The notes: generated from the letters alone by a model not told the origin. Counted from the first letter of the stretch, positions 24,971-42,671 are shown. The stretch is 42,671 nucleotides of DNA from an uncultured candidate division WWE3 bacterium (GCA_965603395.1 CBFDCV010000002.1:1-42671), one strand, 5' to 3'. Program-made: numbers and translations.

Positions 24971-27841
24971 ATGCCCACAGAATTAGTAAGTTTTTTTTAT
25001 CCAAAATCAGTGGCTATAATAGGTGCTTCCAGGTCTCCCGAGAAATTAGGTACCATTATTTTAAAAAACATAAGGGAAAGTGGTTTTACTGGGAAAATAT
25101 ACCCGGTTAATCCTCATGCGGACAGTATAAATGATATTAAAGCTTACCCTGACATTACAAAACTGCCCGAAACACCGGAACTGGTGATCATATCAATACC
25201 GTCTTGTCAGGTAGTGGAGGTTTTAAAGCAAGTAGGCGAAAAAGGCACCAAAAACGTAGTAGTTTTATCAGCCGGGTTTAAAGAAATCGGTGAGGAAGGT
25301 GCGAAACTAGAAAAAAACCTGGTAGAAATAGTAAAAAAGCATGAAATCAACCTTTTAGGGCCAAATTGTCTGGGTTTTGTCAATAATCTCGCCCCTATTA
25401 ACGCTACGTTTGGCGAGCCGGTTAAGCAGGTTGGAAATTTACGTTTTATTACTCAATCCGGAGCCATTGCGGCGGGACTTTTTGATTGGTGTAATTTTGT
25501 AGGTTTAGGTTTAAGTGAATTTGTCACATTAGGCAACAAAGCCGGTTTGAGTGAAAACAACATCTTGAGATATTTTCACGAACAAGATCAGAATACTTTA
25601 GCCAACCACAACGGTGAGGGATTATCTAGCCTCTCACCCATTGGTTTATATTTGGAATCTTTAGCAGATGGGAAAGAATTTTTACGCTTGGCTAAAGAAA
25701 TTACTAAAACCAATCCTGTTTTTGTCATCAAACCCGGAAAAACCAAAGCAGCGGCTAAAGCCATGCAGTCCCATACGGGCGCCATTGCCGGTGAGGATGA
25801 TGTGTTAGACGCTGTTTTAAAACATGCTGGAGTTGTAAGATGTCAGACTTTGGAAGATTTTTTCGATGTTGCCAGAGCCTTTGCTTGGGAAGATTTACCC
25901 CAGGGTCCTAAAGTAGCAGTTGTTTCCAATGCCGGAGGCCCGGCAGTTATAAGTGCGGATGCGGTTATTCAGGAAGGGTTGGAATTAGCAGAATTTGATC
26001 AACTCACTAAAGATAAATTAACCGAAGCTCTACCAAGATCAGCAAGCATAGTAAATCCGGTTGATGTGCTCGGGGACGCACTAGCTGATAGGTTTTCCCA
26101 AGCCATTGAAGCGGTATTGCAGACAGATGATGTACATTCTTTGGTAGTGATCTTAACCCCGCAAATCATGACACAGATAGCCCAAACAGCTGAAACCATC
26201 GGTAATTTATCCAAAAAATACAAAAAACCCATATTTTGCTCATTTATAGGTGGAAAACTGGTAGCGGAAGGTGAACAAAAATTGAATGAATATAAAATAC
26301 CCTCTTTTAGATACCCGGAAAGAGCCATTGCAGCCGTAGGAGCTATGTGGAAATTTAAAAAATACCAACTTGAAGCCCATGAGGATGGATTTGTAGAAGA
26401 AACCGTGCAATTGGAATCAGACGACAACTCTTGCCGTGCCGCTATACAAGAGGCCGTAAACAAAAAATACAAAACATTGGATAATCTCATGGCTGATAAA
26501 GTATTATGCTCGGCTGGAATAAAATCGCCGCCAACCAAGGCAGCCGCTAGTTTGGACGAGGCCAAAGAATTTGCAAAAGAACATGGCTGGCCTGTTGTTT
26601 TGAAACTATCATCTCCCGGATTGTTGCACAAAAAAGAAGTGGGCGGCGTGGTGCTGGATATATTAAATGAAAAACAACTGGATGAAGCTTGGCATATGCT
26701 GGAAAGAAAAGTCGAACAGTTGGACCGGGGAATTAAGGAACATTTGGTTTTCCAAATCCAAAAAGACATTCAAAATGGCGTAGAAGTGATAGTTGGCTTC
26801 AAGCATGATCCAACTTTTGGTCCGGTATTGCTTTTTGGAGCCGGCGGATCTTATGCGGAATTAATCGATGATAAAAACTTACATTTACTACCTATAACAC
26901 GTCAGCAAGTTGTTGAGTTAGTGCAAAAATCTAAAATTTACGAAATACTAAAAGGCCATGAAGGTGAGCCACCTTATTCCTTGGAAAAACTGTATGATCT
27001 GATCTTACGTGTTGCTAAGCTGGAAACCATGATTCCTGAGGCTGAGGATATAGAAATCAATCCGGTTATAGTAACATTAAATGATGTGTGGGCTGTGGAT
27101 GGAAAAATCATTATGAAAGAAATCGAACAAAAAACAACTCCAAATCCTCCAACCATGAAAACAGCTACTGCTACTAAACATGAGGTGTTGGCAGCGTATT
27201 TTCATTATTATGAGGTGGAAACTGAAGAACCGTTTGATTTCAAACCCGGGCAGTATATTAGTGTTAAGGTAGCGCCGGATGCCATCAGGGCATATTCTAT
27301 TACTACCAAACTGGGACCTAACAAATTTGCCTTGTTGGTGGATATTAGACCGGGCGGACCGGGCTCAAAGTTTTTCGAGAGTTTAAAACCTGGCGATAAA
27401 CTGCCCTTTTTAGGACCTTTTGGAAAGTTCACTCTTGAATTGGAAGAAAGTGTGGAACAACTACTGTTTTTAGGTACAGGATCAGGTATGAGCGCACTTA
27501 GGTGCATGATAGATTCGGCCCTAAAAGAGCAAGGAGTGAAAACACCTATGAAATTATATTTTGGGCTTACTTTTCCTCATGAGATCTTTTGGCAGGATTA
27601 TTTTGAAAATCTTAAAAAAGAGTACCCAAACTTTGATTATGATATTGCTATATTCAAACCTGATGAATCTTGGACCGGGCACACAGGATTTATCACAGAA
27701 TATGTAAAGCAGGACTTCCCGGATACTAGTAAAAGTGTGGCCTATTTGTGTGGTCACAGAGCTATGATCGCTGACGCTAGTGAGTTATTGCAGGCCAACG
27801 GCTGCCCCAAAGAAAGAATTTTTACAGAAAGGTTTGTGTAA
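24971..27841 (+). CDS. ADP-forming acetyl-CoA synthetase (fused alpha-beta) with C-terminal FNR-type FAD/NAD(P)-binding domain
   Basis: CoA-binding N-terminus (VAIIGASRSPEKLG), the phosphohistidine segment MQSHTGAIAGEDD and an ATP-grasp half (to about aa 715). About 220 aa follow carrying RAYS, GGPGSKF, LGPFG, LFLGTGSGMS and YLCGHRAM. Confidence 0.85.
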   Translation: MPTELVSFFYPKSVAIIGASRSPEKLGTIILKNIRESGFTGKIYPVNPHADSINDIKAYPDITKLPETPELVIISIPSCQVVEVLKQVGEKGTKNVVVLSAGFKEIGEEGAKLEKNLVEIVKKHEINLLGPNCLGFVNNLAPINATFGEPVKQVGNLRFITQSGAIAAGLFDWCNFVGLGLSEFVTLGNKAGLSENNILRYFHEQDQNTLANHNGEGLSSLSPIGLYLESLADGKEFLRLAKEITKTNPVFVIKPGKTKAAAKAMQSHTGAIAGEDDVLDAVLKHAGVVRCQTLEDFFDVARAFAWEDLPQGPKVAVVSNAGGPAVISADAVIQEGLELAEFDQLTKDKLTEALPRSASIVNPVDVLGDALADRFSQAIEAVLQTDDVHSLVVILTPQIMTQIAQTAETIGNLSKKYKKPIFCSFIGGKLVAEGEQKLNEYKIPSFRYPERAIAAVGAMWKFKKYQLEAHEDGFVEETVQLESDDNSCRAAIQEAVNKKYKTLDNLMADKVLCSAGIKSPPTKAAASLDEAKEFAKEHGWPVVLKLSSPGLLHKKEVGGVVLDILNEKQLDEAWHMLERKVEQLDRGIKEHLVFQIQKDIQNGVEVIVGFKHDPTFGPVLLFGAGGSYAELIDDKNLHLLPITRQQVVELVQKSKIYEILKGHEGEPPYSLEKLYDLILRVAKLETMIPEAEDIEINPVIVTLNDVWAVDGKIIMKEIEQKTTPNPPTMKTATATKHEVLAAYFHYYEVETEEPFDFKPGQYISVKVAPDAIRAYSITTKLGPNKFALLVDIRPGGPGSKFFESLKPGDKLPFLGPFGKFTLELEESVEQLLFLGTGSGMSALRCMIDSALKEQGVKTPMKLYFGLTFPHEIFWQDYFENLKKEYPNFDYDIAIFKPDESWTGHTGFITEYVKQDFPDTSKSVAYLCGHRAMIADASELLQANGCPKERIFTERFV

Positions 27842-29574
27842 TGCAAGAAATTTTTACACTAAAAATTGCCGGTATGGCAGGGCAAGGAATAAAATCCGCA
27901 GGCATTTTATATGCTCGATTTGCTAATCGTTCGGGACGGTTTATTTATAACTATATTGAATACCCATCTATAATTAGGGGCGGACATAATGTGATGCAAA
28001 TAAACATTTGTAATGAAGAGGTAACCGGTCCTAGCAGCAAAACAGACTTTTTAATTGCCCTAAATCAAGAATCCATTGATTTTCATGTGGATGAACTAAC
28101 TAAGGGAGCGGGAATTGTGTTTGATGGAGATGATAATTTGGATACTTCCAAAGTGCCTGAGGGCGTGAATCTTTGTCCGGTTCCTTTGTCTGCCTTGGCT
28201 AAAGAGGCTGGTGGCGGTGAGTTGTTGGTAAATACTGTGGCTTTGGGAGCTGCTACAGCTCATTTGGGTGGCAGTATGGATATTTTGAAAAATCTTGTTC
28301 ATGAAGAATTTGCCGACAAGGGTGAGGAGATTGTGCAGGCTGATCAAAAAGCTGCTGAGTTAGGTTACAATTTTGCAAAAGAAAATTACCCCAATGTAAT
28401 AAATGATACTTTAAAACCTGAGGACACTATGTCTTCCGCTATTCCTAGGATGGTTATCAACGGTAATGAAGCGGCTGCCTTAGGCGCCATTGCCGGTGGA
28501 GTGCAGTTTGCCGCTATTTATCCCATGTCACCTATATCAAATATATTGCATGTACTGGCTAAACATCAGGAAACATACGGTTATGTGTATAAACAGCCTG
28601 AAGATGAGATTGCGGCCATAAATATGGCTTTAGGAGCTTCCTTTGCCGGTGCTAGGGCCATGACCGCTACCTCAGGTGGAGGTTTTGCCTTAATGACTGA
28701 AAGCTACGGTTTGGCAGGCATTGCAGAGCTACCGGTAGTGATTATTGAGGGTCAGCGCGGAGGTCCGGCTACAGGAATTCCTACTTGGAGCAGCCAGGGA
28801 GATCTACGATTTGTATTACATGCTCATCAGGATGATTTTCCCAGGATTATATTAACCCCCGGAGATCCGGAAGAAACTTTTTACATGACCATGGAAGCTT
28901 TTAATTTGGCAGAAAAATACCAAACACCTGTAGTGGTACTAATCGATAAAAATATTTGTGAAAATGATAAGAGCATTCAGTATCTGAATATCAAGGATTT
29001 TGAGGTGGATAGAGGTAATTTCACCATGGAAAAAGTCGAAAACTATGAAAGATACGCTTTATCAGATGATGGAATTTCTCATAGATCAGTTCCCGGAGTA
29101 GGGAATTACTTTATTGCTAATTCCGATGAGCACGACGCTATTGGTTACTCCAGTGAAGAAATTCAAAATCGCAATGAGCAAATGGAAAAAAGAATGAAAA
29201 AGCTGGAAACTTGCGCTCAACAAGACATGCCCGAACCGGAGTTGTTCGGTCCGGAAAATGCTGATCTGACAATAATTTCATGGGGTAGTAATAAAGGAAC
29301 CATCACACAGGCACTGAAAAAATTCGATAATGTTAACTTTTTACATTTAACTTGGATAAATCCTTTTCCGGTGGCCAAAGTAAAAAAAGTACTGAGCAAA
29401 GCAAAACACGTTATTAATGTTGAATGCAACTTCACAGCACACCTGGGCGGTATCATCAGAGAAAAAACAGGTATTGAAATTAAGGACAACTTCTTAAAAT
29501 ATGATGGCAGACCAATCTATGTAGAGGAGATGGTCGAAAAGATAAATTCTGTTTTGAAAGGAGGCAAATCATGA
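27841..29574 (+). CDS. 2-oxoacid:ferredoxin oxidoreductase, fused gamma-alpha subunit
   Basis: TAATG overlap with the upstream stop. Gamma-type N-terminus (IAGMAGQGIKSAG). Alpha core (NGNEAAALGAIAGGVQFAAIYPMSPIS, EGQRGGPATGIPT). Confidence 0.85.
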   Translation: MQEIFTLKIAGMAGQGIKSAGILYARFANRSGRFIYNYIEYPSIIRGGHNVMQINICNEEVTGPSSKTDFLIALNQESIDFHVDELTKGAGIVFDGDDNLDTSKVPEGVNLCPVPLSALAKEAGGGELLVNTVALGAATAHLGGSMDILKNLVHEEFADKGEEIVQADQKAAELGYNFAKENYPNVINDTLKPEDTMSSAIPRMVINGNEAAALGAIAGGVQFAAIYPMSPISNILHVLAKHQETYGYVYKQPEDEIAAINMALGASFAGARAMTATSGGGFALMTESYGLAGIAELPVVIIEGQRGGPATGIPTWSSQGDLRFVLHAHQDDFPRIILTPGDPEETFYMTMEAFNLAEKYQTPVVVLIDKNICENDKSIQYLNIKDFEVDRGNFTMEKVENYERYALSDDGISHRSVPGVGNYFIANSDEHDAIGYSSEEIQNRNEQMEKRMKKLETCAQQDMPEPELFGPENADLTIISWGSNKGTITQALKKFDNVNFLHLTWINPFPVAKVKKVLSKAKHVINVECNFTAHLGGIIREKTGIEIKDNFLKYDGRPIYVEEMVEKINSVLKGGKS

Positions 29575-30428
29575 CTACATTAGCAGATTTAAAAACACCA
29601 TATGACCCGAACTGGTGTCCCGGTTGCGGAAATCTACCTTTATGGTTGGCTTTTAAAAACGCAGCTGTAGAAAAAGACTGGGATAATACCAATACGGCTA
29701 TAGTGGCCGGTATAGGATGCCATGGACACATTTTAAACTTTACCAAGCTAACTTCCTTTGAGGGTTTGCACGGCAGGCCGGTTCCTGTAGCGTCGGGTAT
29801 AAAAATGGCCAATCATCGCTTAAACGTATTTGCTTTTTCCGGTGATGGAGACTCTTTAGGTGAAGGCGGCAACCATTTTATACACGCGGCTAGAAGAAAC
29901 CACGATATAACTTTAATTTTGCACGATAACGGATTGTATGCACTAACAACAGGGCAGACATCTCCGGCTACGCCTCATGGGTTGAAGACCAAATCTACGC
30001 CGCAGGGAAATCCTGACTATCCGCTTATGCCCATAACTATGGCTATAGCGGCAGGAGCTACTTTTGTAGCCAGAGGGTTTACCGGAGATATAAAGCAGCT
30101 GACCGACTTATTTATTCAAGCCAATGAACACAAGGGATTTGCCTTGGTGGATGTCATGCAGCCATGTCAGACTTTCAATAAAGTTTTAACTCACGAGTTT
30201 TATCAGCAGAATAAGTACTATTTGGGAGAAGATCATGATGTTACAAACAAAGAAGCAGCCTTCAAAAAATCATTAGAGTTTGGTGAAAAAGCTATACCTT
30301 TGGGAGTATTTTATAAAGAGGAAAAACAAAGCTATGAGAGCGTATTGCCCCAATTAGCAGAAACTCCTCTTATAGAGCATTCACCGGTTCGAAAAGATTT
30401 GGACGGGTTGTTCAAAAAGTATATTTAG
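29571..30428 (+). CDS. 2-oxoacid:ferredoxin oxidoreductase, beta (TPP-binding) subunit
   Basis: ATGA overlap with the alpha subunit. WCPGCGN, and the TPP motif GDGDSLGEGGNHFIHAARRNHDITLILHDNGLYALTTGQ. Confidence 0.85.
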   Translation: MTTLADLKTPYDPNWCPGCGNLPLWLAFKNAAVEKDWDNTNTAIVAGIGCHGHILNFTKLTSFEGLHGRPVPVASGIKMANHRLNVFAFSGDGDSLGEGGNHFIHAARRNHDITLILHDNGLYALTTGQTSPATPHGLKTKSTPQGNPDYPLMPITMAIAAGATFVARGFTGDIKQLTDLFIQANEHKGFALVDVMQPCQTFNKVLTHEFYQQNKYYLGEDHDVTNKEAAFKKSLEFGEKAIPLGVFYKEEKQSYESVLPQLAETPLIEHSPVRKDLDGLFKKYI

Positions 30429-30443
30429 TTTATTCTTAAGTTT

Positions 30444-30701
30444 ATGAGTGATTTCTCAGAAAATGACAAAATATTACAAATCGGCAAGTACAAAGTTCAG
30501 GTTGTAAGAGAACTTTGTATAGGGGCCGCTTCCTGTTTAGCTTTTTCTCCGGATAGCTTTACCTTAGACGGAGAGAACAAGGCAGTGATCACGGAAGGAA
30601 GCACTGATGAAGAAAATATCATCATGGCAGCTCAATCATGTCCCACCAAGGCCATTATTGTCGAAGATACAGAAACAGGTCAGCAAGTTTGGCCGGCTTG
30701 A
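30444..30701 (+). CDS. small single-cluster ferredoxin
   Basis: 85 aa. CIGAASCLAFSPDSF ... AAQSCPTKAI shows the Cx5C...CP pattern of single [3Fe-4S]/[4Fe-4S] ferredoxins. Confidence 0.8.
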   Translation: MSDFSENDKILQIGKYKVQVVRELCIGAASCLAFSPDSFTLDGENKAVITEGSTDEENIIMAAQSCPTKAIIVEDTETGQQVWPA

Positions 30702-30708
30702 TCGAACA

Positions 30709-30760
30709 TAAAAAAAGAGGACAGGCATCAGTTATATTTAACTGAGGTTCACCCGTCCTC
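30709..30760 (-). terminator. intrinsic terminator (minus strand; hairpin also follows the plus-strand ferredoxin gene)
   Basis: The outer stem GAGGACAGG/CCCGTCCTC has one mismatch and encloses the inner stem TCAGTTA-TATT-TAACTGA. The minus strand reads the hairpin followed by a run of at least seven Ts. It abuts the stop codon of 30760..31476. Confidence 0.5.
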
Positions 30761-31476
30761 TAGGCGTTATACGCGTTGACTACTTCCTTGGTCCAGTTCA
30801 GGAGATTTGCTGAGTCTATTGGTGTTTTTGTTAGGTTAACAGCTACCCATTTTAAATGTACTGCTACTGTGTTTCCTACCTTAAGTGATGGCTTGAAAAG
30901 TCTAGGGTCGAATTCCACTTCTTCCCGGAGGTTGGTAGTAACCAGTTTTCTTCTCTTATTAGTCAGAGAGATCAGATCTACAGCGGCTGTCTTTTCTGAA
31001 ATTTCTGTTATTACGCCAAATCTAACCATGCAATTATTGACTCCACCAAGGTCCTTTCTTGTTCCCCCACTTAAAAAATGACCTAGCAAAACTTGATAAA
31101 GGTGCATAGGGATGAAATTTGCAGGTGCAATCTTTCTTAATTCATCCAAGTTCTCCCTAGGATAGCCTTTGACTACCATTTCGGAGAGAAGAAGCTCAAA
31201 ATGTTTGGGCTCAGCTTTATGTAGATCATCACTGCCCAACCAATAAGCACGCGTTACCTCCGGTTTAAATGCGTCAGCTGTGCCTATCATGCTTTTAATG
31301 GTTGTCAGGTACGGAAACATGTTGGCAAATTGACCAAATTCTTTCCTAACACCTTTGCATTGGCCGGTAAGAATACATTTGATGATTGCTTCTTCCGGTA
31401 GTTTTCCGGTGCCGCAAGAACTATTTCTGTAAGCTGGGTAAGCAAATCTTGCCGCAAGCTGTAGGCCACTACTCAT
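30760..31476 (-). CDS. uncharacterised conserved protein (DUF6390-like?) with HypC-like C-terminal segment
   Basis: Strong SD (AAAAGGAGGAAAAG before the ATG). FAYPAYRNSSCGTG, RAYWLGSD, IPMHLYQVL, NNCMVRFGVI and VGNTVAVHLKWVAVNL match what I recall of DUF6390. This is unverified. Confidence 0.5.
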   Translation of the reverse strand: MSSGLQLAARFAYPAYRNSSCGTGKLPEEAIIKCILTGQCKGVRKEFGQFANMFPYLTTIKSMIGTADAFKPEVTRAYWLGSDDLHKAEPKHFELLLSEMVVKGYPRENLDELRKIAPANFIPMHLYQVLLGHFLSGGTRKDLGGVNNCMVRFGVITEISEKTAAVDLISLTNKRRKLVTTNLREEVEFDPRLFKPSLKVGNTVAVHLKWVAVNLTKTPIDSANLLNWTKEVVNAYNA

Positions 31477-31550
31477 CTTTTCCTCCTTTTTTGATTTAAA
31501 GTTCGTCTAATTTATTACTTTGTTTGTGTGGTATCTTAAAGTAAATTGTT

Positions 31551-31952
31551 ATGAAAGTCTATGTTTTCGGAAATCAGGATATGCTCGAAGATAGCTGGGC
31601 ACATAAACATACAGAGAAACTAAGTGCTGATTTTCCTAAAATTAAATTCATTTTCATTAAACCAAACGAAGACCTACCGTTTGTAGATGAGAAACAGATT
31701 GTTATTATGGATGCGGTTGAGGGAATTTCCAAGGCCCGAATTTTTGAAGATGCTGATCCGGATAAGATCAAACTCTCTCCTCGTACCTCAGTGCATGATT
31801 TTGATCTTGGTTTTCAATTAAAATATCTAAAGAAAATTGGGAAGTTGGGAAAAATCACTATTTTAGGGATTCCCATGACGGGAGATGCTGACTACAGTTC
31901 TATCCACTCCATGGTCAAAAAATTAGTAGCACAAGACATGCAAGGATCGTAA
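31551..31952 (+). CDS. [NiFe] hydrogenase maturation endopeptidase (HycI/HyaD family)
   Basis: MKVYVFGNQDMLEDSWA (GNxxxxDD-like), IVIMDAVEG and SVHDFDLG correspond to the three metal-ligand regions. 133 aa. Confidence 0.7.
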   Translation: MKVYVFGNQDMLEDSWAHKHTEKLSADFPKIKFIFIKPNEDLPFVDEKQIVIMDAVEGISKARIFEDADPDKIKLSPRTSVHDFDLGFQLKYLKKIGKLGKITILGIPMTGDADYSSIHSMVKKLVAQDMQGS

Positions 31953-33193
31953 GCCCGGATAATTTTTTCAGCTTCTAAACGTAAAATGTCCTGGTGTTTA
32001 TCCATATTTTCGTTAAAATATTTTTTTAAATCGTTTTCTATGTTTATTTGGTTTTGAGCTGTAGGTACAATAACATCGTAATCTATGATCATGCCTTTTT
32101 CGTCAATTTCTGCCATGTGGTACAAAATTCCTCTTGGGGCCTCCACTACGCCCACCCCTCTGCCTGCTTGAGGGGGTTTTCTAATTGGTTTTTCATCTTT
32201 TAACTCAATATTTCTTAAAATATCTAAAGAATCGTCTACGCAGTGTAAAATCTCAATAGCTTGAGCTAGGTTATTATCGAAGACGTTATTAGAAGGGAAA
32301 GCGTCTAATATTTCTCTTAAACTTTCAACAGTTTTGGGATGGAGCTGATCTTTGTTGAGATTTATTCGAGCCAAAGAGCCAACTAAGTAGTCCTCATGAT
32401 CATCAGAAAATACATAACCCTCAGCTTGAGAGTAAGGGATAACTACTGATTTCAAAAAGTCATGGAAATTTTCTTCAGGAACTTTTTTGCCACTAGAGTT
32501 GACCACTTCTCCTTCCAGAAAATCAAACCTGTCGGGATTTCGAATACAAAGATAATCAGAATTTCTTATCAGCTCCTCTTTCCAATCAAAGAAAAGTTTT
32601 ACACCTCTAAGAACTTGGGAGCGGATTTTTTCTAGATCAGCGATTAATTCCGGAAATTTGGATGAGTCCGGTAACTTTAATAAGCCACCGACAGTAGGAT
32701 AAGGTGCGTGAATAGCGGCGCCGATTGTTACATCAGAGATTTTTGTGCCCACCCTTTTAATATCAAAAGAATCGTGTAGTAAAGTATGGCCAAAATCATC
32801 GTGATCATCAGGAATGTCTAAAATGGAGTCTATGCCCAACACATCAGGCAAAACAAAAAAGTATAGGTGCAAGGCGTGGTCCCTGATCATCAAAGCATTA
32901 TAAGCAAGCCTTCTTAAAGTCATAGTTTGCTCAGTGTTTTCAATGCCTTGGGATTTTTCTATGGCTTCCAGGGAGGCAAAAAGGTGTGCTACAGAACAAG
33001 TACCACAAATCCTGGACAAAAATGAACCCGCGGCAATATAAGGTTTGCCCTTGACCGCTTCAGTGTAAAACCTTCGATAATCCTTGATAATAAATTTTAA
33101 ATCTTTTACCTGGCCGTTTCTGACAGTTACCTCTAAACCAGCTGTTCCTTCAACTTTTGATATAGAATCTATGTTTATTTCACCACTGTGCAT
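31892..33193 (-). CDS. [NiFe] hydrogenase large subunit (group 3-like)
   Basis: N-terminal RICGTCSVAH and C-terminal DPCMSCATN Ni-Fe ligand motifs. At 433 aa the size fits cytoplasmic group 3 enzymes. Confidence 0.9.
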   Translation of the reverse strand: MHSGEINIDSISKVEGTAGLEVTVRNGQVKDLKFIIKDYRRFYTEAVKGKPYIAAGSFLSRICGTCSVAHLFASLEAIEKSQGIENTEQTMTLRRLAYNALMIRDHALHLYFFVLPDVLGIDSILDIPDDHDDFGHTLLHDSFDIKRVGTKISDVTIGAAIHAPYPTVGGLLKLPDSSKFPELIADLEKIRSQVLRGVKLFFDWKEELIRNSDYLCIRNPDRFDFLEGEVVNSSGKKVPEENFHDFLKSVVIPYSQAEGYVFSDDHEDYLVGSLARINLNKDQLHPKTVESLREILDAFPSNNVFDNNLAQAIEILHCVDDSLDILRNIELKDEKPIRKPPQAGRGVGVVEAPRGILYHMAEIDEKGMIIDYDVIVPTAQNQINIENDLKKYFNENMDKHQDILRLEAEKIIRAYDPCMSCATNFLTMEWIEL

Positions 33194-33194
33194 A

Positions 33195-33719
33195 TTAAGG
33201 TATGTTAAAAATTTTTAAATATTTTTCTAAAACTTGATAAAAAGTTTGTACGTTCATAGGGCAGCCATCTACCTTGTCATCTACCTGTATGACTTCCTCC
33301 AGTTTTTGTACTTTATCACTGTAGTCAAAATGATCCAAATACCATTGGATGCGTTCGTTTATTTGCTCATCGCCAAAGTCATTTCTGCTGGCAGAGGGCA
33401 TGCCTGTGCAAGCGCAAGAACCTATGGCTACCACGTATTTGGCGTTGTCCCTTATTTTTTTAACTTCCTCTTCTTGTGTAGACGAAGAAACTGCCCCTTC
33501 GATGAAAGCCACGTCCAAATTTTCCAGCTTATTGTTAGTTTTGAGAGATCTTACATGTTGAAAATCGACTACTTTTTTCCATTCGTCAAAATGATCGTTT
33601 AGTAGTTCCGTAAATAATATAGTGCTATCTTCGCAACAAGTAAATGAAAACCACCCTATGGCCATTTTTTTCTTTTTGGTTTGGGTTTCTTGTACCTGTT
33701 CTTGTTTTTGTTCGTCCAT
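33195..33719 (-). CDS. [NiFe] hydrogenase small subunit, minimal (proximal-cluster only)
   Basis: 174 aa. The cysteines occur only in FTCCEDS, GSCACTGMP and DGCPMN. It lies 1 nt upstream of the large subunit. An alternative start is Met19 (MAIGWFSF). Confidence 0.8.
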   Translation of the reverse strand: MDEQKQEQVQETQTKKKKMAIGWFSFTCCEDSTILFTELLNDHFDEWKKVVDFQHVRSLKTNNKLENLDVAFIEGAVSSSTQEEEVKKIRDNAKYVVAIGSCACTGMPSASRNDFGDEQINERIQWYLDHFDYSDKVQKLEEVIQVDDKVDGCPMNVQTFYQVLEKYLKIFNIP

Positions 33720-33747
33720 AAAACTTCTCTAAATCGATAACATTATT

Positions 33748-33753
33748 TATAAT
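33748..33753 (+). promoter_or_regulatory. -10 box placed for a (near-)leaderless hypC transcript
   Basis: An exact TATAAT is followed by 8 nt and then ATG 33762. There is no SD. It lies in the 42-nt divergent gap to the hydrogenase operon. Confidence 0.4.
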
Positions 33754-33761
33754 AACATAAC

Positions 33762-33962
33762 ATGTGTTTAGCAATACCGGGAAAAATTAAAGCTATAAAG
33801 GGCCGAAAGGCGGTTATAGAATACCCGGGACAGGTGCGGGAAGCCTTCATAGGCGAAGAGGGCGTACAGGTTAACGACTATGTTTTGGTACAAATGGGCG
33901 TGGTGACAAAAAAAATGACAGTGAAGGAAGCCAAGACAGCTATGAAAGCTTGGGAAAAATAA
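33762..33962 (+). CDS. hypC: hydrogenase assembly chaperone HypC/HupF family
   Basis: MCLAIPGKI N-terminus with the essential Cys2, and YVLVQMGVV. 66 aa. Confidence 0.85.
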   Translation: MCLAIPGKIKAIKGRKAVIEYPGQVREAFIGEEGVQVNDYVLVQMGVVTKKMTVKEAKTAMKAWEK

Positions 33963-34022: not shown

Positions 34023-34799
34023 ATGCACTCATTATTCGTTGGAAGATGGCAGCCCATACATAAGGGCCACAAAACATTAATAGAAAAAGTATTAGACGAA
34101 GGAAAACCCGTTTTAATAGCCATTAGAGAGACTGAAGTATCAGAGCAAGATCCCTATACGGTAGAAGAAAGAGAGGTAATGATAAGAAAGGAGTTTGCTG
34201 AGTACGGTGATCGGGTGAAAATTGTGGCAATTCCCGATATTGCAGAGATTTGTTATGGGAGAAAAGTGGGATATAAAATTAGAGAACTCACGCTTGAGGA
34301 TTCGGTAGAAGACATATCTGCTACAAAAATTAGAGACTCTCAAAAAAGAGTAGTATGGTTTACCGGTAATGTTGGTTCAGGAAAGTCTGAGCTAGCGCAC
34401 TTATTAAAAGAAAGATTAAACGGCATTATATTAGAGGGAAACGCCATGAGGGAATCAATATCTCTTGGCGCCAGTTTTAGTAAAGAAGATAGGGAAGAGC
34501 ACAATCTGCGTGTAGCAAGATTGGCTAAGGTTCTTAATAATCAAGGACACAACGTTGTAGTTTCTGTGATCGCTCCTTTTCAAGACGCTAGGGAAAAGAT
34601 TACTCAGATCTGTAATCCATACTGGATTTACGTAAGTGGAGGAGAAGTAGGTGAGGATAAACCTTATGAACCGCCAGAGAGCCCAGATGTGGTTATAGAG
34701 CCATCAGAAGAGTCATTGTTGGAAAGTATGGATAAAATTATCAAAGAGGTTGGAAATCTGGAAAAGGAAAAACCCAAGGAAGAAGAGCAGAATGAATGA
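34023..34799 (+). CDS. fusion: minimal HxGH nucleotidyltransferase domain + adenylylsulfate (APS) kinase domain
   Basis: The N-terminal ~108 aa carry FVGRWQPIHKGH (GRFQPxHxGH type) and ISATKIR (ISxTxxR). The APS-kinase-like part follows: VVWFTGNVGSGKSELA (P-loop), LEGNAMRE and FSKEDREEHNLRVARLAKVL. The tail is acidic. Confidence 0.7.
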   Translation: MHSLFVGRWQPIHKGHKTLIEKVLDEGKPVLIAIRETEVSEQDPYTVEEREVMIRKEFAEYGDRVKIVAIPDIAEICYGRKVGYKIRELTLEDSVEDISATKIRDSQKRVVWFTGNVGSGKSELAHLLKERLNGIILEGNAMRESISLGASFSKEDREEHNLRVARLAKVLNNQGHNVVVSVIAPFQDAREKITQICNPYWIYVSGGEVGEDKPYEPPESPDVVIEPSEESLLESMDKIIKEVGNLEKEKPKEEEQNE

Positions 34800-35617: not shown

Positions 35618-37732
35618 TTAAAAACCTCCAAAGTAATAGTCTCTTGATCTTTCATAATAAGCGTTAGGTAGTAACATGCAGTTTAATGTGTCTGGAAGGG
35701 GTATTTCAGTGATATTAGCTACCCTTAAAAACTCATAATTGTGATATCCGCACCCCGGGGAGTTGTTGAAGTGGTAGTAATTAAGCTTAATCTTTTCTTG
35801 GTTTTTAGGAAGGTACCTCTCTGAAATAGGTACGTTTGAGAGGAAATACACATTTTGGAAGTTCTCAGCCATCTCCATAACTGTTGTATCAAGTAACTCT
35901 TCCTCAGACCTTAACATAAGAATATTTTTACCATAATAATATTTCATAGGACCTGCCACATAATCATTAAAGTTTTTCGCATACTTACTTGGGTAAATGT
36001 TTTTGTTAACAAAAAGAATTATTGAGTCGCTTCCGATTTTTTTATCAATGTTTTTAAAGAAGTTAACGTCAACTCCTTCATATTTTCCTATTTGAAAAAT
36101 AGAAAAGGTTAAGAAGTACAGACTTGTGAGTATTAAGAATATGTAGCCTAGAACTCTAGTTCTTTTCTTTTGAATGATTTCACCAAGGAAAATTCCCACC
36201 GTTAATAATATGGCAGGAACTACCTCCACAAAGAAATATCGGGCGTTGTAGTAGTCATATCTAACAAAGCCGGTTTTATAGACGTAAATAACCAAAAAGT
36301 AAGTACTAATGAAGGCAAGAAAGTGGTATACGCTAACTTTCTTTCTAAAAATATTTAATAGTGCTACCGAAACAAAGATAATGAATCCTACAACACTAAC
36401 GTAGTTTATTATTGAGACCAACGTGGCATGCTTAATAGTATCAAATCCCCTATAAAGCATATTCCAACGTACCAGCGCTGTGTTTGATCCGGAAAAGAGG
36501 ATGTCGAAGTCTTTTACGGTAGCGCGGTAAATGATATAGAAAAAAGCAGAAGATAGTAGTATATACGACTGTTTAAGGGTTTTAGAAAATAGGCTGTAAA
36601 TTTTCTGATTGGAAAATACAATAAATATTAAAACTAACAAAATAAGAAAAACGAGTATCTTTAAGTTTGTTTCCAAGTTAAGAGGAATAATTTTATCTAA
36701 AGCAAAACCAATTGTTTTTGGATAAAGCCCGTTATATAAGGGAAACATAAACAAACGGTAGTAGATGTAGGTGGCGCTAAGTATCAAGATATTTGCCAAA
36801 GAATATAAAATTAACGCTATCTTGTTACTATTGTAATAATTGAGTAAAACTATCAGTAGTAAAACTGGAAAGTAGATAAAAAACGTCATTCTAGTGAATG
36901 AAAAAACAAAAAATGACATAAGAGAAAAGATTAAAAACAGACAGTCTTTGTAACCGTTGTTTTTGCAGTTCAAATATCTGAGAAGAAAATATAGACCGGA
37001 TGAGGAAAACGCTAAAGCGGAGATTTCTCCTACAGGGAACTTAGAGAAAAATAAATGTAAAGGATTAATGGAAAACAGCAACATTACTATTAGGGACGTA
37101 CGCTTGTTTTTTGTTAAATGATATGTGATGAGGTAAGAATTAATTAAAGTTATGGCAGAAAATAGGGTTAATAGGAACACTCTATTATTTGAACCTAGTA
37201 AAAAAGAAGAGACGCTTAAATAAGAAGGGTAGGCAGGGTAAAACCTCATTGTATATTCCGAGTTTGGTCTATTCCACTTTTCGAAACTGGGCATTATGTA
37301 GTTACCGTCACGGTCATATAGTTCTTTTTGACCGTCTGTTAGTGTTTCCCTGAACTCATCGACCATGTACAGTTTATTATCCAGTTCATATTGCTTTGAA
37401 ATACTTATGTAAGTGCCTTGGTCCTGGCCACCTAGTAGATACAAGGTGGGCGGTAGTCTAATCAATACAGCCGCTAGAAGTAATACTACTGCACTGACGG
37501 TAAATCTTTTATCCCTAGAAACAGCGCCCAAGTATTTTTTAAAAAGAATTATAAAGATAGAAAACAATAATAAACTGAGAGTGATGGAATAAACTGGTTC
37601 GAAACTTTTTAAGGCCAGCAAAATAATATTAACAATTCCCACGGTTGAAATAACTACTAACAGCAAATCATAGAAATACAGGCCTATTTTATTATTGTTG
37701 TTTTTCTTATCCATCGGTTTTTTTGTGGGCAA
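35618..37732 (-). CDS. very large polytopic membrane protein (possible GT-C glycosyltransferase or polymerase)
   Basis: 704 aa with 15 or more hydrophobic helices. The first loop reads LGGQDQGTYISISKQ. The C-terminal domain is soluble. The start is TTG 37732 or ATG 37714. The gene is very AT-rich. Confidence 0.6.
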   Translation of the reverse strand: MPTKKPMDKKNNNNKIGLYFYDLLLVVISTVGIVNIILLALKSFEPVYSITLSLLLFSIFIILFKKYLGAVSRDKRFTVSAVVLLLAAVLIRLPPTLYLLGGQDQGTYISISKQYELDNKLYMVDEFRETLTDGQKELYDRDGNYIMPSFEKWNRPNSEYTMRFYPAYPSYLSVSSFLLGSNNRVFLLTLFSAITLINSYLITYHLTKNKRTSLIVMLLFSINPLHLFFSKFPVGEISALAFSSSGLYFLLRYLNCKNNGYKDCLFLIFSLMSFFVFSFTRMTFFIYFPVLLLIVLLNYYNSNKIALILYSLANILILSATYIYYRLFMFPLYNGLYPKTIGFALDKIIPLNLETNLKILVFLILLVLIFIVFSNQKIYSLFSKTLKQSYILLSSAFFYIIYRATVKDFDILFSGSNTALVRWNMLYRGFDTIKHATLVSIINYVSVVGFIIFVSVALLNIFRKKVSVYHFLAFISTYFLVIYVYKTGFVRYDYYNARYFFVEVVPAILLTVGIFLGEIIQKKRTRVLGYIFLILTSLYFLTFSIFQIGKYEGVDVNFFKNIDKKIGSDSIILFVNKNIYPSKYAKNFNDYVAGPMKYYYGKNILMLRSEEELLDTTVMEMAENFQNVYFLSNVPISERYLPKNQEKIKLNYYHFNNSPGCGYHNYEFLRVANITEIPLPDTLNCMLLPNAYYERSRDYYFGGF

Positions 37733-42283: not shown

Positions 42284-42671
42284 GTATTTCTCCTTCCAGT
42301 ACAGCCCTAACGAGCTCAAAGTTCGTGTCTGATGATCTTACTACTTTGCCCAAGTTGTTTGATATAGAATTTTTAACAACATTTTTTTCAGATTCCAACT
42401 TATCATAAGTTTTTAACAATTTATCAGCGCTTAAGTTCTCATAGTTGATGATGTACTCATTAATATCAAAAGGATCAACAAGCTCATGGTACTTATGGCC
42501 CCAGCTAATAGCTATTGTAGGTACTTCTTTTGATAAAGACGAGACAATCGAATGGAATCGGCAGCCAATAAAGATACTTCCTAAACCAATAACCTCTCTT
42601 AATACAAGTGAGTTATCTTGGTGGGGCAGCATCCAAACTCCCGCGTCTTTATACGTAGAGTTCTCGTAAAG
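42276..42671 (-). CDS. polysaccharide pyruvyl transferase family protein (5' end outside window)
   Basis: The frame stays open to the window edge (LYENSTYKDAGVW precedes the track Met). IGLGSIFIGCRFHSIVSSLSKEVPTIAISWGHKYHEL resembles the conserved C-terminal core of the PS_pyruv_trans family. Confidence 0.6.
   Translation of the reverse strand, partial: LYENSTYKDAGVWMLPHQDNSLVLREVIGLGSIFIGCRFHSIVSSLSKEVPTIAISWGHKYHELVDPFDINEYIINYENLSADKLLKTYDKLESEKNVVKNSISNNLGKVVRSSDTNFELVRAVLEGEIHE

What the first reader, a model, noticed from the sequence alone, without database searches (positions are those of the whole stretch)
24971..33962. Compact pyruvate-to-acetate-to-H2 module with non-canonical wiring
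Within 9 kb sit the following genes:
- ACD-FNR.
- A two-subunit OFOR (gamma-alpha and beta, no delta subunit).
- A single-cluster ferredoxin.
- An unknown protein.
- A maturation protease.
- [NiFe] hydrogenase small and large subunits.
- hypC.

The first four genes overlap or are 15 nt apart (TAATG, ATGA), which implies one operon. The canonical beta and gamma electron-transfer subunits of cytoplasmic group 3b enzymes are absent, as are Hox/Mvh-type partners. The only candidate electron conduits are the 85-aa ferredoxin and the FNR domain on ACD. This looks like a self-contained fermentative ATP and H2 unit whose electron path is not explained by described systems.
Basis: partly seen in the sequence, partly recalled or inferred. 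Interest (0 to 1): 0.7.

Follow-up and report, generated by a model that had tools for sequence, protein, structure and literature searches.

The report
Minimal CPR hydrogenase beside oxoacid-ferredoxin operon
In a tiny-genome (Patescibacteria/CPR) bacterium, a stripped-down two-subunit nickel-iron hydrogenase sits beside an operon that oxidises a 2-oxoacid, makes ATP and reduces a small ferredoxin; the pairing is conserved across hundreds of species, and the hydrogenase type was noticed in 2020 but its electron partner is still unknown.

Summary
The gene list is correct and sits at the stated coordinates. The cluster is not a one-off. In 80 species-representative genomes the same order recurs: HypC, small subunit (SSU), large subunit (LSU), HycI, DUF6390, often EamA, then ferredoxin, OFOR-beta, OFOR-gamma-alpha and FNR, usually fused to ACD. 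FNR is present in 45 of 52 sufficiently long loci.

- **Hydrogenase:** it fits the CPR-specific "hyd2" clade of group-3b-related enzymes (Jaffe et al. 2020). That clade has a truncated SSU and no beta/gamma subunits, and its function was left open. That anomaly is therefore already published.
- **OFOR:** the delta-less form is an ordinary two-subunit class, and its substrate is not proven.

New here:
- FNR, not ACD, is the constant partner; it stands alone in 10 loci.
- The ferredoxin has three Cys (CxxAxxC…CP), which suggests a [3Fe-4S] cluster.
- The "unknown protein" DUF6390 carries a HypC-like domain, so it is probably a maturation factor rather than an electron conduit.
- No HypA/B/D/E/F lies within 10 kb in any locus.
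- The two units also occur apart.

Best model (inferred, about 0.45): the ferredoxin is a hub between OFOR, the exposed proximal cluster of hyd2 (giving H2) and FNR (giving NAD(P)H). I rate it a new variant of a known kind, of moderate interest.

The parts
24971..27841 (+). ACD-FNR fusion (956 aa). Residues 1-~715 are an ADP-forming acyl-CoA synthetase with fused alpha and beta parts; the phospho-His loop reads MQSHTGAIAG. Residues ~721-956 (nt 27131-27838) are an FNR-type FAD/NAD(P)H module with no Fe-S domain.
   Evidence: Pfam. PDB: 8WZU at 2.7e-126 for the ACD part, and NqrF/MMOR/BenC at 1e-17 to 3e-23 for the FNR part. NCBIfam. The top 120 homologues all share this architecture. The FNR module is stand-alone (~230 aa) in 10 of 52 related loci.
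27841..29574 (+). 2-oxoacid:ferredoxin oxidoreductase, fused gamma-alpha subunit (577 aa). It overlaps the ACD-FNR stop codon (TAATG).
   Evidence: Pfam. It scores 618 bits against TIGR03710, above the cutoff of 483. Best PDB matches are the two-subunit enzymes 6N2N (2e-85) and 5B46. Junction sequence.
29571..30428 (+). OFOR beta subunit (285 aa; TPP and single [4Fe-4S] subunit). Its start overlaps the upstream stop codon (ATGA).
   Evidence: Pfam. It scores 302 bits against TIGR02177, above the cutoff of 262. Junction sequence.
30444..30701 (+). Small single-cluster ferredoxin (85 aa) with only three Cys in the motif C25-x2-A-x2-C31…C66-P. This is the [3Fe-4S]-type pattern. It is the proposed electron hub.
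   Evidence: Fer4_13/Fer4_15 in Pfam. In 52 of 53 orthologues there are three Cys and the CxxAxxC…CP pattern. It lies 15 nt after OFOR beta.
30760..31476 (-). DUF6390 protein (238 aa). It has an N-terminal helical domain with conserved C21, C34, C40 and H125, followed by a C-terminal HypC-like OB-fold domain with C149 and H207. It is a probable hydrogenase maturation factor. The window carries a divergent variant, about 36% identical to that of its nearest relative.
   Evidence: Pfam; conservation; AF2 model with pLDDT 78; weak OB-fold matches. hhalign against HypC gives 95% probability and P = 2e-8, with negative controls. Present in 61 of 72 loci.
31551..31952 (+). HycI/HybD-like maturation endopeptidase (133 aa). 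Its last 61 nt overlap the 3' end of the large-subunit gene on the opposite strand.
   Evidence: Weak Pfam hit. Present in 74 of 74 loci. The 61-nt overlap is conserved in 65 of 75 loci.
31892..33193 (-). [NiFe]-hydrogenase large subunit (433 aa). The L1 motif is RICGTCSVAH. The L2 motif is DPCMSCATN followed by a 9-residue tail.
   Evidence: Pfam. PDB: SHI alpha (group 3b) at 4e-58, ahead of MvhA at 3e-40, FrhA at 1e-32 and HoxH at 1e-31. NCBIfam HydA scores 225 bits against a cutoff of 880. Motif invariance.
33195..33719 (-). Truncated small subunit (174 aa). It contains only the N-terminal proximal-cluster domain and lacks the ferredoxin-like domain that carries the medial and distal clusters.
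   Evidence: Oxidored_q6 in Pfam. It aligns to residues ~47-150 of the 261-aa SHI delta and to positions 2-153 of the 261-position HydD model. Median length is 171 aa in 73 sequences, and C28, D31, C102 and C153 are conserved.
33762..33962 (+). HypC-family chaperone (66 aa, N-terminal MCLAIPG). It has Gln at the position of E. coli HypC His51.
   Evidence: Pfam. Present in 65 of 72 loci. Gln at this position in 62 of 62 hyd2-linked HypC sequences.

Best explanation
This is a conserved Patescibacteria neighbourhood built from two separable units.

**Unit 1** is an operon: [ACD-]FNR, a two-subunit OFOR and a three-Cys ferredoxin.

**Unit 2** is the 'hyd2' minimal [NiFe]-hydrogenase. It consists of a large subunit and a small subunit that retains only the proximal Fe-S cluster. 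It comes with its own maturation set: a HycI-like protease, HypC and the HypC-like DUF6390. Most relatives also have an EamA transporter.

**Proposed mechanism**
1. OFOR oxidises a 2-oxoacid (probably pyruvate) plus CoA to acyl-CoA and CO2, and reduces the small ferredoxin.
2. ACD converts acyl-CoA, ADP and Pi to the acid and ATP.
3. The ferredoxin acts as a diffusible hub and is re-oxidised in one of two ways:
   - (a) by docking directly at the exposed proximal cluster of the truncated small subunit, giving H2;
   - (b) by the FNR module, giving NAD(P)H.
4. The same FNR-ferredoxin-hyd2 chain could also vent NAD(P)H as H2 at low H2 pressure.

In effect, the FAD/NAD(P) subunit (gamma) and the Fe-S relay (beta plus the small-subunit C-terminal domain) of a group 3b enzyme are replaced by unbundled FNR and ferredoxin.

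**Shown:** gene identities, motifs, translational coupling and conserved synteny. **Inferred:** every electron-transfer step, the substrate and the direction.
For: -
- ACD-FNR, OFOR and ferredoxin are translationally coupled.
- Synteny holds across 80 species genomes: HycI 74/74, SSU 73/74, HypC 65/72, DUF6390 61/72, Fd 50/59, OFOR-beta 49/59, FNR 45/52, ACD 37/51.
- From the ACD-FNR side, 4 of 6 long contigs carry hyd2 next door.
- FNR stays in the operon when ACD is absent (10 loci).
- FNR and ferredoxin stay adjacent when OFOR is absent or moved (L038, L064, L068, L045).
- The small subunit lacks the medial and distal clusters. Its proximal cluster must therefore exchange electrons directly with an external carrier.
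- All four Ni-Fe Cys are invariant, and a dedicated protease and HypC are present. This argues for an active enzyme.
- Lower-glycolysis genes (PPDK/PEP synthase, enolase, phosphoglycerate mutase) lie directly upstream of ACD-FNR in L084 and L082. This fits pyruvate as the substrate.
- Jaffe et al. 2020 (PMC7304191) searched whole genomes with HMMs. They recovered no beta subunit near hyd2, and gamma-type (NAD-binding) hits only non-proximal and on the other strand, and left open whether hyd2 has these subunits.
Against: - There is no direct evidence for any protein-protein contact, and no domain fusion links FNR, ferredoxin or OFOR to the hydrogenase. The top 150 FNR relatives are ACD fusions or stand-alone modules.
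- The two units occur apart. hyd2 occurs without the operon within 10 kb in L022, L042 and L076, and with only SSU, LSU and HycI in high-GC Rubrobacteraceae contigs. The operon occurs without hyd2 within 10 kb in L083 and L084.
- From general knowledge, a [3Fe-4S] ferredoxin often has a potential well above the H+/H2 couple. That would make H2 evolution feasible only at low H2 pressure.
- The OFOR's best solved relative is a 2-oxoglutarate enzyme that works in the CO2-fixing direction (6N2N).
- HypD/E/F and HypA/B were not found near any locus, so maturation is not accounted for.
Confidence: 0.45

Rival explanations
1. The adjacency does not reflect a shared electron chain. hyd2 works with a partner encoded elsewhere (canonical beta/gamma-like subunits or an unknown protein), or with general cellular carriers. 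In this view the ACD-FNR/OFOR/ferredoxin operon is an independent 2-oxoacid:NAD(P)+ oxidoreductase and ATP system: OFOR reduces ferredoxin, ferredoxin reduces FNR, and FNR makes NAD(P)H. This is analogous to pyruvate:NADP+ oxidoreductase.
For: The units occur apart. hyd2 occurs alone in L022, L042, L076 and in the Rubrobacteraceae loci L063, L067, L070, L075 and L080. The operon occurs alone in L083 and L084. The two units lie on opposite strands. FNR belongs to the OFOR operon and is never fused to a hydrogenase gene.
Against: Adjacency holds in about 85% of long loci across many CPR classes despite rearrangements. No alternative partner gene is conserved next to hyd2. Its only other conserved neighbours are maturation-type proteins and an EamA transporter. 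Jaffe et al. 2020 recovered no beta subunit near hyd2 and only non-proximal gamma-type hits, and left the question open.
Confidence: 0.25
2. The module runs in the opposite, assimilatory direction. hyd2 takes up H2 and reduces the ferredoxin. The ferredoxin then drives reductive carboxylation of acetyl-CoA to pyruvate by the OFOR, with ACD activating acetate at the cost of ATP. It also drives NADPH formation by FNR for biosynthesis.
For: The OFOR's best solved relative (6N2N) is a reverse-TCA, CO2-fixing enzyme. PEP synthase/PPDK and enolase lie upstream in L084 and L082 and could serve gluconeogenesis. Group 3b enzymes are considered bidirectional (PMC7304191).
Against: From general knowledge, reductive carboxylation needs a carrier near -500 mV. 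A three-Cys [3Fe-4S]-type ferredoxin and H2 at environmental pressures are unlikely to supply that without bifurcation, and no bifurcating module is present. ADP-forming ACD is typically used for ATP synthesis in fermenters. CPR bacteria are generally inferred to be fermentative (PMC3812714).
Confidence: 0.12
3. hyd2 is not a working hydrogenase in these reduced genomes. It could be a relic, a sensor, or a scaffold with another role, because the canonical machinery for the Fe(CN)2CO cofactor (HypD/E/F) and for nickel insertion (HypA/B) is missing.
For: No HypA/B/D/E/F homologue was found in the window or within 10 kb of 80 loci. The residue at the canonical C-terminal cleavage position is Asn, not His or Arg, in 79 of 79 sequences. 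HypC lacks the His51 equivalent.
Against: The large subunit is 66-84% identical across distant lineages, and all four metal-binding Cys are invariant. The protease, HypC and a HypC-like protein are retained. Only 2-3% of each genome was inspected, so Hyp genes may lie elsewhere.
Confidence: 0.08

Closest known systems
[quoted passage not shown] 2020, BMC Biol 18:69; PMC7304191)
   Same: CPR origin. The large subunit is nearest to group 3b. The small subunit is consistently truncated (mean 164 aa in the paper; 174 aa here, median 171 aa in 73 sequences). HypC is nearby, and no proximal beta/gamma subunits are present. The paper's 'NAD-binding hit in the vicinity but on the other strand' matches the FNR module seen here.
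   Different: The paper left the function open. Its plots covered only same-strand families, and it did not describe several things found here: the conserved ACD-FNR/OFOR/ferredoxin operon, the three-Cys ferredoxin, the HypC-like nature of DUF6390, or copies in Rubrobacteraceae. Placement of this large subunit inside their hyd2 subtree was not tested, because their sequences were not on hand.
Pyrococcus furiosus / Thermococcus soluble hydrogenase I (sulfhydrogenase; group 3b; PDB 9NEZ, 9E15, 5YXY)
   Same: It is the best-scoring solved relative of both the large subunit (4e-58) and the small subunit (2e-12). It is cytoplasmic and has the CxxC motifs.
   Different: SHI is an alpha-delta-beta-gamma tetramer. 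Its delta subunit is 261 aa and has additional clusters. Its beta subunit is an Fe-S protein and its gamma subunit carries FAD, [2Fe-2S] and NADPH. Here the small subunit stops after the proximal-cluster domain, and beta and gamma are absent. Scores fall far below the NCBIfam equivalog cutoffs (225 against 880; 61 against 500). The L2 motif ends in Asn, not His.
Group 3d NAD-linked Hox hydrogenase (HoxHY plus HoxEFU; PDB 5XF9) and the HydABCSL small subunit (7T2R_E, 179 aa)
   Same: The small subunit is about 180 aa and carries only the proximal cluster, which hands electrons straight to a partner protein.
   Different: The partner there is a NuoEFG-like diaphorase that is stably bound. No such genes are present here. 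Similarity of the large subunit is lower (1e-31 and 3e-29).
Thermococcales fermentation: POR to ferredoxin to membrane-bound hydrogenase (group 4), with ADP-forming ACD
   Same: The metabolic logic is the same: a 2-oxoacid oxidoreductase reduces a single-cluster ferredoxin, H2 is formed, and ACD makes ATP.
   Different: The hydrogenase there is a multi-subunit, ion-translocating membrane complex, POR has four subunits, and no FNR is fused to ACD.
Two-subunit OFORs (Sulfolobus tokodaii StOFOR 5B46; Magnetococcus marinus OGOR 6N2N; KorAB type)
   Same: A fused gamma-alpha subunit plus a beta subunit, no delta subunit, and a single [4Fe-4S]. The sequences pass TIGR03710 and TIGR02177.
   Different: Substrate preference is unknown here. 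The operon context, with FNR and a three-Cys ferredoxin, is specific to CPR.
HypC/HybG/HupF chaperones
   Same: The C-terminal domain of DUF6390 aligns to HypC (hhalign 95%). A Cys and a His sit at the Cys2 and His51 columns. The AF2 model shows the HypC arrangement of a five-stranded barrel followed by a helix.
   Different: The Cys is internal (C149) rather than N-terminal. A roughly 145-residue Cys-rich helical domain precedes it and has no detectable relative.

Membership tests
Group 3b [NiFe]-hydrogenase (Hyh/SHI type) | Large subunit with the L1 motif (RxCGxCxxxH) and the L2 motif (DPCxxCxxH/R), which supply the Ni-Fe ligands | tested here: met
   L1 is RICGTCSVAH and L2 is DPCMSCATN. 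All four Cys are invariant. The last residue is Asn rather than His or Arg in 79 of 79 sequences.
Group 3b [NiFe]-hydrogenase (Hyh/SHI type) | Large subunit groups with 3b reference sequences | tested here: inconclusive
   The best PDB and NCBIfam hits are 3b (4e-58; HydA 225 bits), ahead of groups 3c, 3a and 3d. The score is far below the equivalog cutoff of 880. No tree was built here. Jaffe et al. 2020 place hyd2 on a long branch beside 3b.
Group 3b [NiFe]-hydrogenase (Hyh/SHI type) | Small (delta) subunit of about 250-260 aa with Fe-S clusters beyond the proximal one | tested here: not met
   The subunit is 174 aa and covers only positions 2-153 of the 261-position HydD model. It has no C-terminal ferredoxin-like domain.
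Group 3b [NiFe]-hydrogenase (Hyh/SHI type) | Beta (Fe-S) and gamma (FAD/[2Fe-2S]/NAD(P)H) subunits encoded with the enzyme | tested here: not met
   None is present in the 42.7-kb window or in the annotated flanks of L082, L085 and L086. The FNR-domain query also found no gamma-like gene in the 80 loci, but those flanks were not scanned for a HydB-type beta subunit. The only FNR-type module matches SHI gamma weakly (26-43 bits) and has no [2Fe-2S] domain. Genome-wide absence could not be tested here.
CPR hyd2 clade (Jaffe et al. 2020) | CPR genome, truncated small subunit (~164 aa), HypC nearby, no proximal beta/gamma | tested here: met
   compared with the text of PMC7304191.
CPR hyd2 clade (Jaffe et al. 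2020) | Large subunit falls inside the hyd2 subtree | not tested
Group 3d (Hox) bidirectional hydrogenase | HoxEFU diaphorase genes together with HoxHY | tested here: not met
   No NuoE/F/G-like genes occur in the window or the annotated loci. Only the short small subunit resembles HoxY.
Two-subunit 2-oxoacid:ferredoxin oxidoreductase (TIGR03710 and TIGR02177) | Fused gamma-alpha subunit and beta subunit both scoring above the curated cutoffs, with no delta subunit | tested here: met
   Scores are 618 against a cutoff of 483, and 302 against a cutoff of 262. Best PDB matches are 6N2N and 5B46. Substrate (pyruvate or other 2-oxoacids) is not testable here.
ADP-forming acyl-CoA synthetase (ACD) | CoA-binding, CoA-ligase and ATP-grasp domains, with the phospho-histidine loop | tested here: met
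   All domains score above the Pfam cutoffs. 8WZU matches at 2.7e-126. The loop MQSHTGAIAG is read from the translation; its assignment as the phospho-His loop rests on general knowledge. Acetyl-CoA specificity is not testable: scores are below the NCBIfam equivalog cutoffs.
HypC/HupF chaperone family (as applied to DUF6390) | OB-fold domain with the conserved Cys at position 2 (free N-terminus) | tested here: not met
   The domain is homologous (hhalign 95%, P = 2e-8, with controls). However, the Cys is internal (C149), behind a 145-residue domain. DUF6390 therefore contains a HypC-like domain but is not a HypC.
[3Fe-4S] single-cluster ferredoxins | CxxAxxC…CP motif with three Cys ligands | tested here: met
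   The motif is present in 52 of 53 orthologues. The actual cluster type and its potential are not testable with these tools.

The most novel reading that the evidence does not exclude
hyd2 is a soluble, two-subunit [NiFe]-hydrogenase whose physiological partner is a free small ferredoxin. That would make it the [NiFe] counterpart of the clostridial ferredoxin-dependent [FeFe] enzymes and a coupling mode not described for group 3. It would be matured by a lineage-specific route in which DUF6390, a HypC-like domain fused to a Cys-rich domain, takes over part of the HypC/HypD scaffold role in genomes that may lack HypD/E/F.
Probability: 0.25. Interest if true: 0.8.

Novelty: new variant of a known kind. 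Interest (0 to 1): 0.55.

Why it matters
CPR/Patescibacteria make up a large share of bacterial diversity, and their energy metabolism is known almost only from gene lists.

**Metabolism.** Suppose this widespread cluster (289 of 185,579 species-representative genomes carry the large subunit) really couples 2-oxoacid oxidation to H2 through a free ferredoxin and a two-subunit [NiFe] enzyme. It would then define the smallest known physiological [NiFe]-hydrogenase system. It would also explain how these ultra-small fermenters dispose of reductant and supply H2 and acetate to hosts or partners.

**Enzymology.** It would offer a compact enzyme for engineering.

**Maturation.** The link between DUF6390 and HypC, and the apparent lack of nearby Hyp genes, turn the question of how [NiFe] cofactor assembly works in reduced genomes into a concrete, testable one.

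Tried and rejected
- **FrhB-like protein as the missing partner.** The FrhB/FdhB-like protein at 40922-42319 sits in a polysaccharide pyruvylation cluster and is absent from all 80 hyd2 loci. Rejected.
- **DUF6390 as an Fe-S electron conduit.** It has four conserved Cys, but profile comparison shows a HypC-like domain with the Cys2 and His51 equivalents. I now read it as a maturation factor. The N-terminal domain matched nothing, either by Foldseek against the PDB or by hhalign against HypA/B/D/E/F, HycH or HydN.
- **Rosetta-stone fusions.** I looked for fusions of the FNR module to ferredoxin, OFOR or hydrogenase among the best 150 of 10,398 relatives. Only ACD fusions, ACD fragments, stand-alone modules and one ordinary Fer2-FNR turned up.
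- **Hyp genes.** E. coli HypA/B/D/E/F used as tblastn queries against the window and 80 loci gave no hits.
- **Alternative partners in hyd2-only loci.** L022 and L076 have only EamA, a transporter, a peptidase and methionine-synthase genes. L063 and L070 have universal stress proteins.
- **EamA as part of the OFOR operon.** It stays with hyd2 when the operon is absent. Rejected.
- **Homologue search for the window's DUF6390.** It returned only 5 proteins, so the structure model rests on a shallow alignment.
- **Literature.** Searches for DUF6390, for later work on hyd2 and for ACD-FNR fusions found nothing beyond Jaffe 2020 and Kantor 2013.
- **Promoter and terminator scan.** Not above the shuffled background.

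Full report
**Observation**

- ACD-FNR (24971-27841, +) has the full ADP-forming acyl-CoA synthetase domain set, followed by FAD_binding_6 and NAD_binding_1.
- The OFOR consists of a fused gamma-alpha subunit (27841-29574) and a beta subunit (29571-30428).
- An 85-aa Fer4_13/Fer4_15 ferredoxin follows at 30444-30701.
- On the other strand, or divergent, lie DUF6390 (30760-31476, -), a HycI-like protease (31551-31952, +), the [NiFe] large subunit (31892-33193, -), the small subunit (33195-33719, -) and HypC (33762-33962, +).

The junctions read TAATG and ATGA, with a 15-nt spacer before the ferredoxin, so the first four genes are translationally coupled. Pfam scans of the other large ORFs of the window found no further hydrogenase subunit, diaphorase or Hyp gene.

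**Organism and recurrence**

Homologues of the large subunit that carry a name are Patescibacteria/CPR. A scan of one genome per species (185,579 species) found 289 genomes with a close relative. I fetched 80 of these with 10-kb flanks. They include WWE3, Woese-, Levy-, Davies-, Ames-, Shapiro-, Collier- and Beckwithbacteria, Uhrbacteria and Dojkabacteria. Some record titles name other taxa, and for the low-GC contigs these are probably mis-binned.

Using the window proteins as tblastn queries, the same order recurs: HypC (reverse), SSU and LSU (forward), HycI (reverse), DUF6390 (forward), then an optional EamA, ferredoxin, OFOR-beta, OFOR-gamma-alpha and FNR(-ACD), all reverse.

Where the contig is long enough, the counts are:

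| Gene | Present / loci long enough |
|---|---|
| HycI | 74/74 |
| SSU | 73/74 |
| HypC | 65/72 |
| DUF6390 | 61/72 |
| Ferredoxin | 50/59 |
| OFOR-beta | 49/59 |
| OFOR-gamma-alpha | 46/53 |
| FNR | 45/52 |
| ACD | 37/51 |

Starting instead from ACD-FNR homologues on long contigs, 4 of 6 have hyd2 next door and 2 do not. The association is far beyond chance.

**The hydrogenase**
- *Large subunit.* It has intact L1 (RICGTCSVAH) and L2 (DPCMSCATN) motifs. It is closest to group 3b: SHI alpha scores 4e-58, against 3e-40 for MvhA, 1e-32 for FrhA and 1e-31 for HoxH. It falls far below the NCBIfam equivalog cutoff (225 against 880 bits).
- *Small subunit.* It is 174 aa (median 171 aa in 73 sequences). 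It aligns only to the N-terminal proximal-cluster domain of the 261-aa SHI delta. The ferredoxin-like domain that carries the medial and distal clusters is missing.
- *Proximal-cluster ligands.* The N-terminal motif GWFSFTC(C/S)EDS is invariant at C28 and 96% conserved at D31. Together with C102 and C153, this suggests a CxxD…C…C ligand set like that of FrhG. This is inferred from an alignment to 3ZFS_B that requires a one-residue shift, and from my recollection that the Frh proximal cluster has an Asp ligand.
- *Prior description.* This is what Jaffe et al. 2020 (PMC7304191) named 'hyd2'. They describe a CPR-specific, long-branch sister of group 3b with truncated small subunits (mean 164 aa), HypC nearby, no proximal beta/gamma, and 'function remains uncertain'. 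Their remark that an NAD-binding hit occurs in the vicinity but on the other strand matches the FNR module described here. The central anomaly of the finding is therefore already in the literature. Kantor et al. 2013 (PMC3812714) listed the same genes individually for the closed WWE3 genome, which is my locus L030.

**The OFOR/ACD/FNR/ferredoxin operon**
- *OFOR.* Both subunits pass the curated cutoffs of the two-subunit 2-oxoacid:acceptor oxidoreductase families (TIGR03710 and TIGR02177). The best solved relatives are the two-subunit enzymes of Magnetococcus (6N2N) and Sulfolobus (5B46). 'No delta subunit' is therefore the normal state of this class. Substrate is not established. Lower-glycolysis genes directly upstream in L084 and L082 favour pyruvate.
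- *FNR module.* It is of the MmoC/BenC/NqrF type and has no Fe-S domain. It resembles SHI gamma only weakly (26-43 bits).
- *FNR, not ACD, is the constant element.* In 52 long loci it is fused to ACD in 34, stand-alone (~230 aa, directly upstream of OFOR) in 10, partial in 1 and absent in 7. FNR and ferredoxin stay adjacent when OFOR is missing or displaced (L038, L064, L068, L045).
- *No informative fusions.* Among 1.84 billion representative proteins, the nearest FNR relatives are ACD fusions and stand-alone modules. None is fused to a ferredoxin of this type, an OFOR or a hydrogenase.
- *Ferredoxin.* It has exactly three Cys in a CxxAxxC…CP motif in 52 of 53 orthologues. From general knowledge this pattern marks [3Fe-4S] single-cluster ferredoxins.

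**The 'unknown protein'**
- DUF6390 has four conserved Cys (21, 34, 40, 149) and two invariant His (125, 207).
- An AF2 model (pLDDT 78, shallow alignment) shows a helical N-domain followed by a five-stranded barrel and a C-terminal helix.
- Foldseek finds only weak OB-fold matches.
- Profile-profile comparison of 59 DUF6390 sequences with 66 HypC sequences gives 95% probability (P = 2e-8). C149 aligns to the essential HypC Cys2, and the VAVH motif aligns to the HypC 'VLVH' segment.
- The same profile matches no other Hyp protein.
- The bona fide HypC of these clusters has Gln at the E. coli His51 position in 62 of 62 sequences, while DUF6390 keeps the His.

I therefore read DUF6390 as a maturation factor, not an electron carrier.

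No HypA/B/D/E/F homologue lies in the window or within 10 kb of any of the 80 loci. Whether they exist elsewhere in these genomes could not be tested.

**Separability**

hyd2 with DUF6390 and EamA occurs without the operon within 10 kb in L022, L042 and L076 (the EamA neighbour was checked in L022 and L076). A bare SSU-LSU-HycI unit occurs on high-GC (58-65%) Rubrobacteraceae contigs, flanked by universal stress proteins. That implies horizontal transfer and shows that the two-subunit enzyme can stand alone. Conversely, the operon occurs without hyd2 nearby in L083 and L084.

The window itself lacks the EamA gene. Its DUF6390 is a divergent variant, only about 36% identical to that of its nearest relative, even though the large subunits are 84% identical.

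**Mechanism**

The small subunit retains only the proximal cluster, so electrons must pass directly between that cluster and an external carrier. The only conserved neighbours with redox cofactors are the ferredoxin, the FNR module and the OFOR.

The best-supported model is that the ferredoxin is a hub:
1. OFOR reduces it.
2. ACD harvests ATP from the acyl-CoA.
3. The ferredoxin is re-oxidised either by hyd2 (giving H2) or by FNR (giving NAD(P)H).
4. The FNR-ferredoxin-hyd2 chain can also act as an unbundled equivalent of the gamma, beta and delta-C-terminal relay of group 3b.

Every electron-transfer step is inferred. I give the model about 0.45.

The rivals are:
- adjacency without a shared chain, with the partner encoded elsewhere (0.25);
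- an assimilatory, H2-consuming direction (0.12);
- a non-functional or re-purposed hydrogenase (0.08).

**Novelty and score**

The hydrogenase type is known from genomics (hyd2). The OFOR, ACD, FNR and HypC families are all known.

What this analysis adds:
- the tight, widespread linkage of hyd2 to an FNR/OFOR/three-Cys-ferredoxin operon;
- the identification of DUF6390 as a HypC-like fusion protein;
- the unusual L2 terminus (Asn plus nine residues);
- the lack of nearby Hyp genes;
- the presence of hyd2 outside CPR.

I rate this a new variant of a known kind and score interest at 0.55. The partner and maturation of a very common minimal [NiFe] enzyme remain open and are now directly testable. 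However, the core oddity was already reported, and no mechanism is demonstrated.

Noticed in passing
window 31892-31952 (overlap of 31551-31952 + and 31892-33193 -): The protease gene and the large-subunit gene overlap tail-to-tail by 61 nt. The protease C-terminus (…KKLVAQDMQGS) is encoded antisense to the nickel-binding L2 motif DPCMSCATNF of its own substrate. The same 61-nt overlap occurs in 65 of 75 related loci.
   Followed up: partly
window 31892-31921 (C-terminus of the large subunit): The L2 motif ends in Asn followed by a 9-residue tail in 79 of 79 sequences. Characterised enzymes have His or Arg at this protease cleavage site. Whether cleavage happens, and where, is unknown.
   Followed up: partly
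between window 30701 and 30760; compare L001 3122-4084, L030 12868-13782, L022 12394-13323: Most relatives carry an EamA/DMT transporter (~305-320 aa) between the ferredoxin and DUF6390. It stays with the hydrogenase unit when the OFOR operon is absent. The window has lost it and has a divergent DUF6390. The role of the transporter is unknown.
   Followed up: partly
L063, L067, L070, L075, L080 (Rubrobacteraceae MAG contigs, GC 58-65%): hyd2-type SSU, LSU and HycI, 66-68% identical to the window's, occur in high-GC actinobacterial contigs. They are flanked by universal stress proteins, and there is no ferredoxin, OFOR, FNR, HypC or DUF6390. This points to horizontal transfer between CPR and Actinobacteria.
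   Followed up: partly
window 40922-42319 (-) and 42276-42632 (-): An FrhB/FdhB-like flavo-Fe-S protein lies next to a polysaccharide pyruvyl transferase fragment and a flippase (37752-39038). It is part of a glycan cluster and is not found near hyd2 in any of the 80 loci.
   Followed up: yes
window 8589-9233 (-): There is a strong match (E = 2.7e-54) to the NpmA family of 16S rRNA (adenine1408-N1) methyltransferases, which is known as an aminoglycoside-resistance family.
   Followed up: no
window 19488-21053 (-), 5897-6445 (+), 34023-34799 (+): Three unusual domain combinations or families for a bacterium: a Memo-AMMECR1 fusion protein, a CarS-like (CDP-archaeol synthase family) protein, and a cytidylyltransferase-like plus APS-kinase-like fusion immediately after HypC.
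   Followed up: no
window 35618-37732 (-), 39040-40920 (-), 728-2317 (+): Three large ORFs (704, 626 and 529 aa) have no Pfam match at E <= 0.001.
   Followed up: no
L085 21637-22865; L086 21408-22859: NifU_N/IscU-like and cysteine desulfurase genes lie directly beside HypC in two relatives. They are a possible local Fe-S supply for the cluster.
   Followed up: no
L085 15435-16142 (-); L086 15436-16002 (-): An extra small redox gene is inserted between OFOR-beta and the ferredoxin on the opposite strand. In L085 it is an NAD_binding_1-only protein of 235 aa. In L086 it is a nitroreductase-family protein.
   Followed up: no
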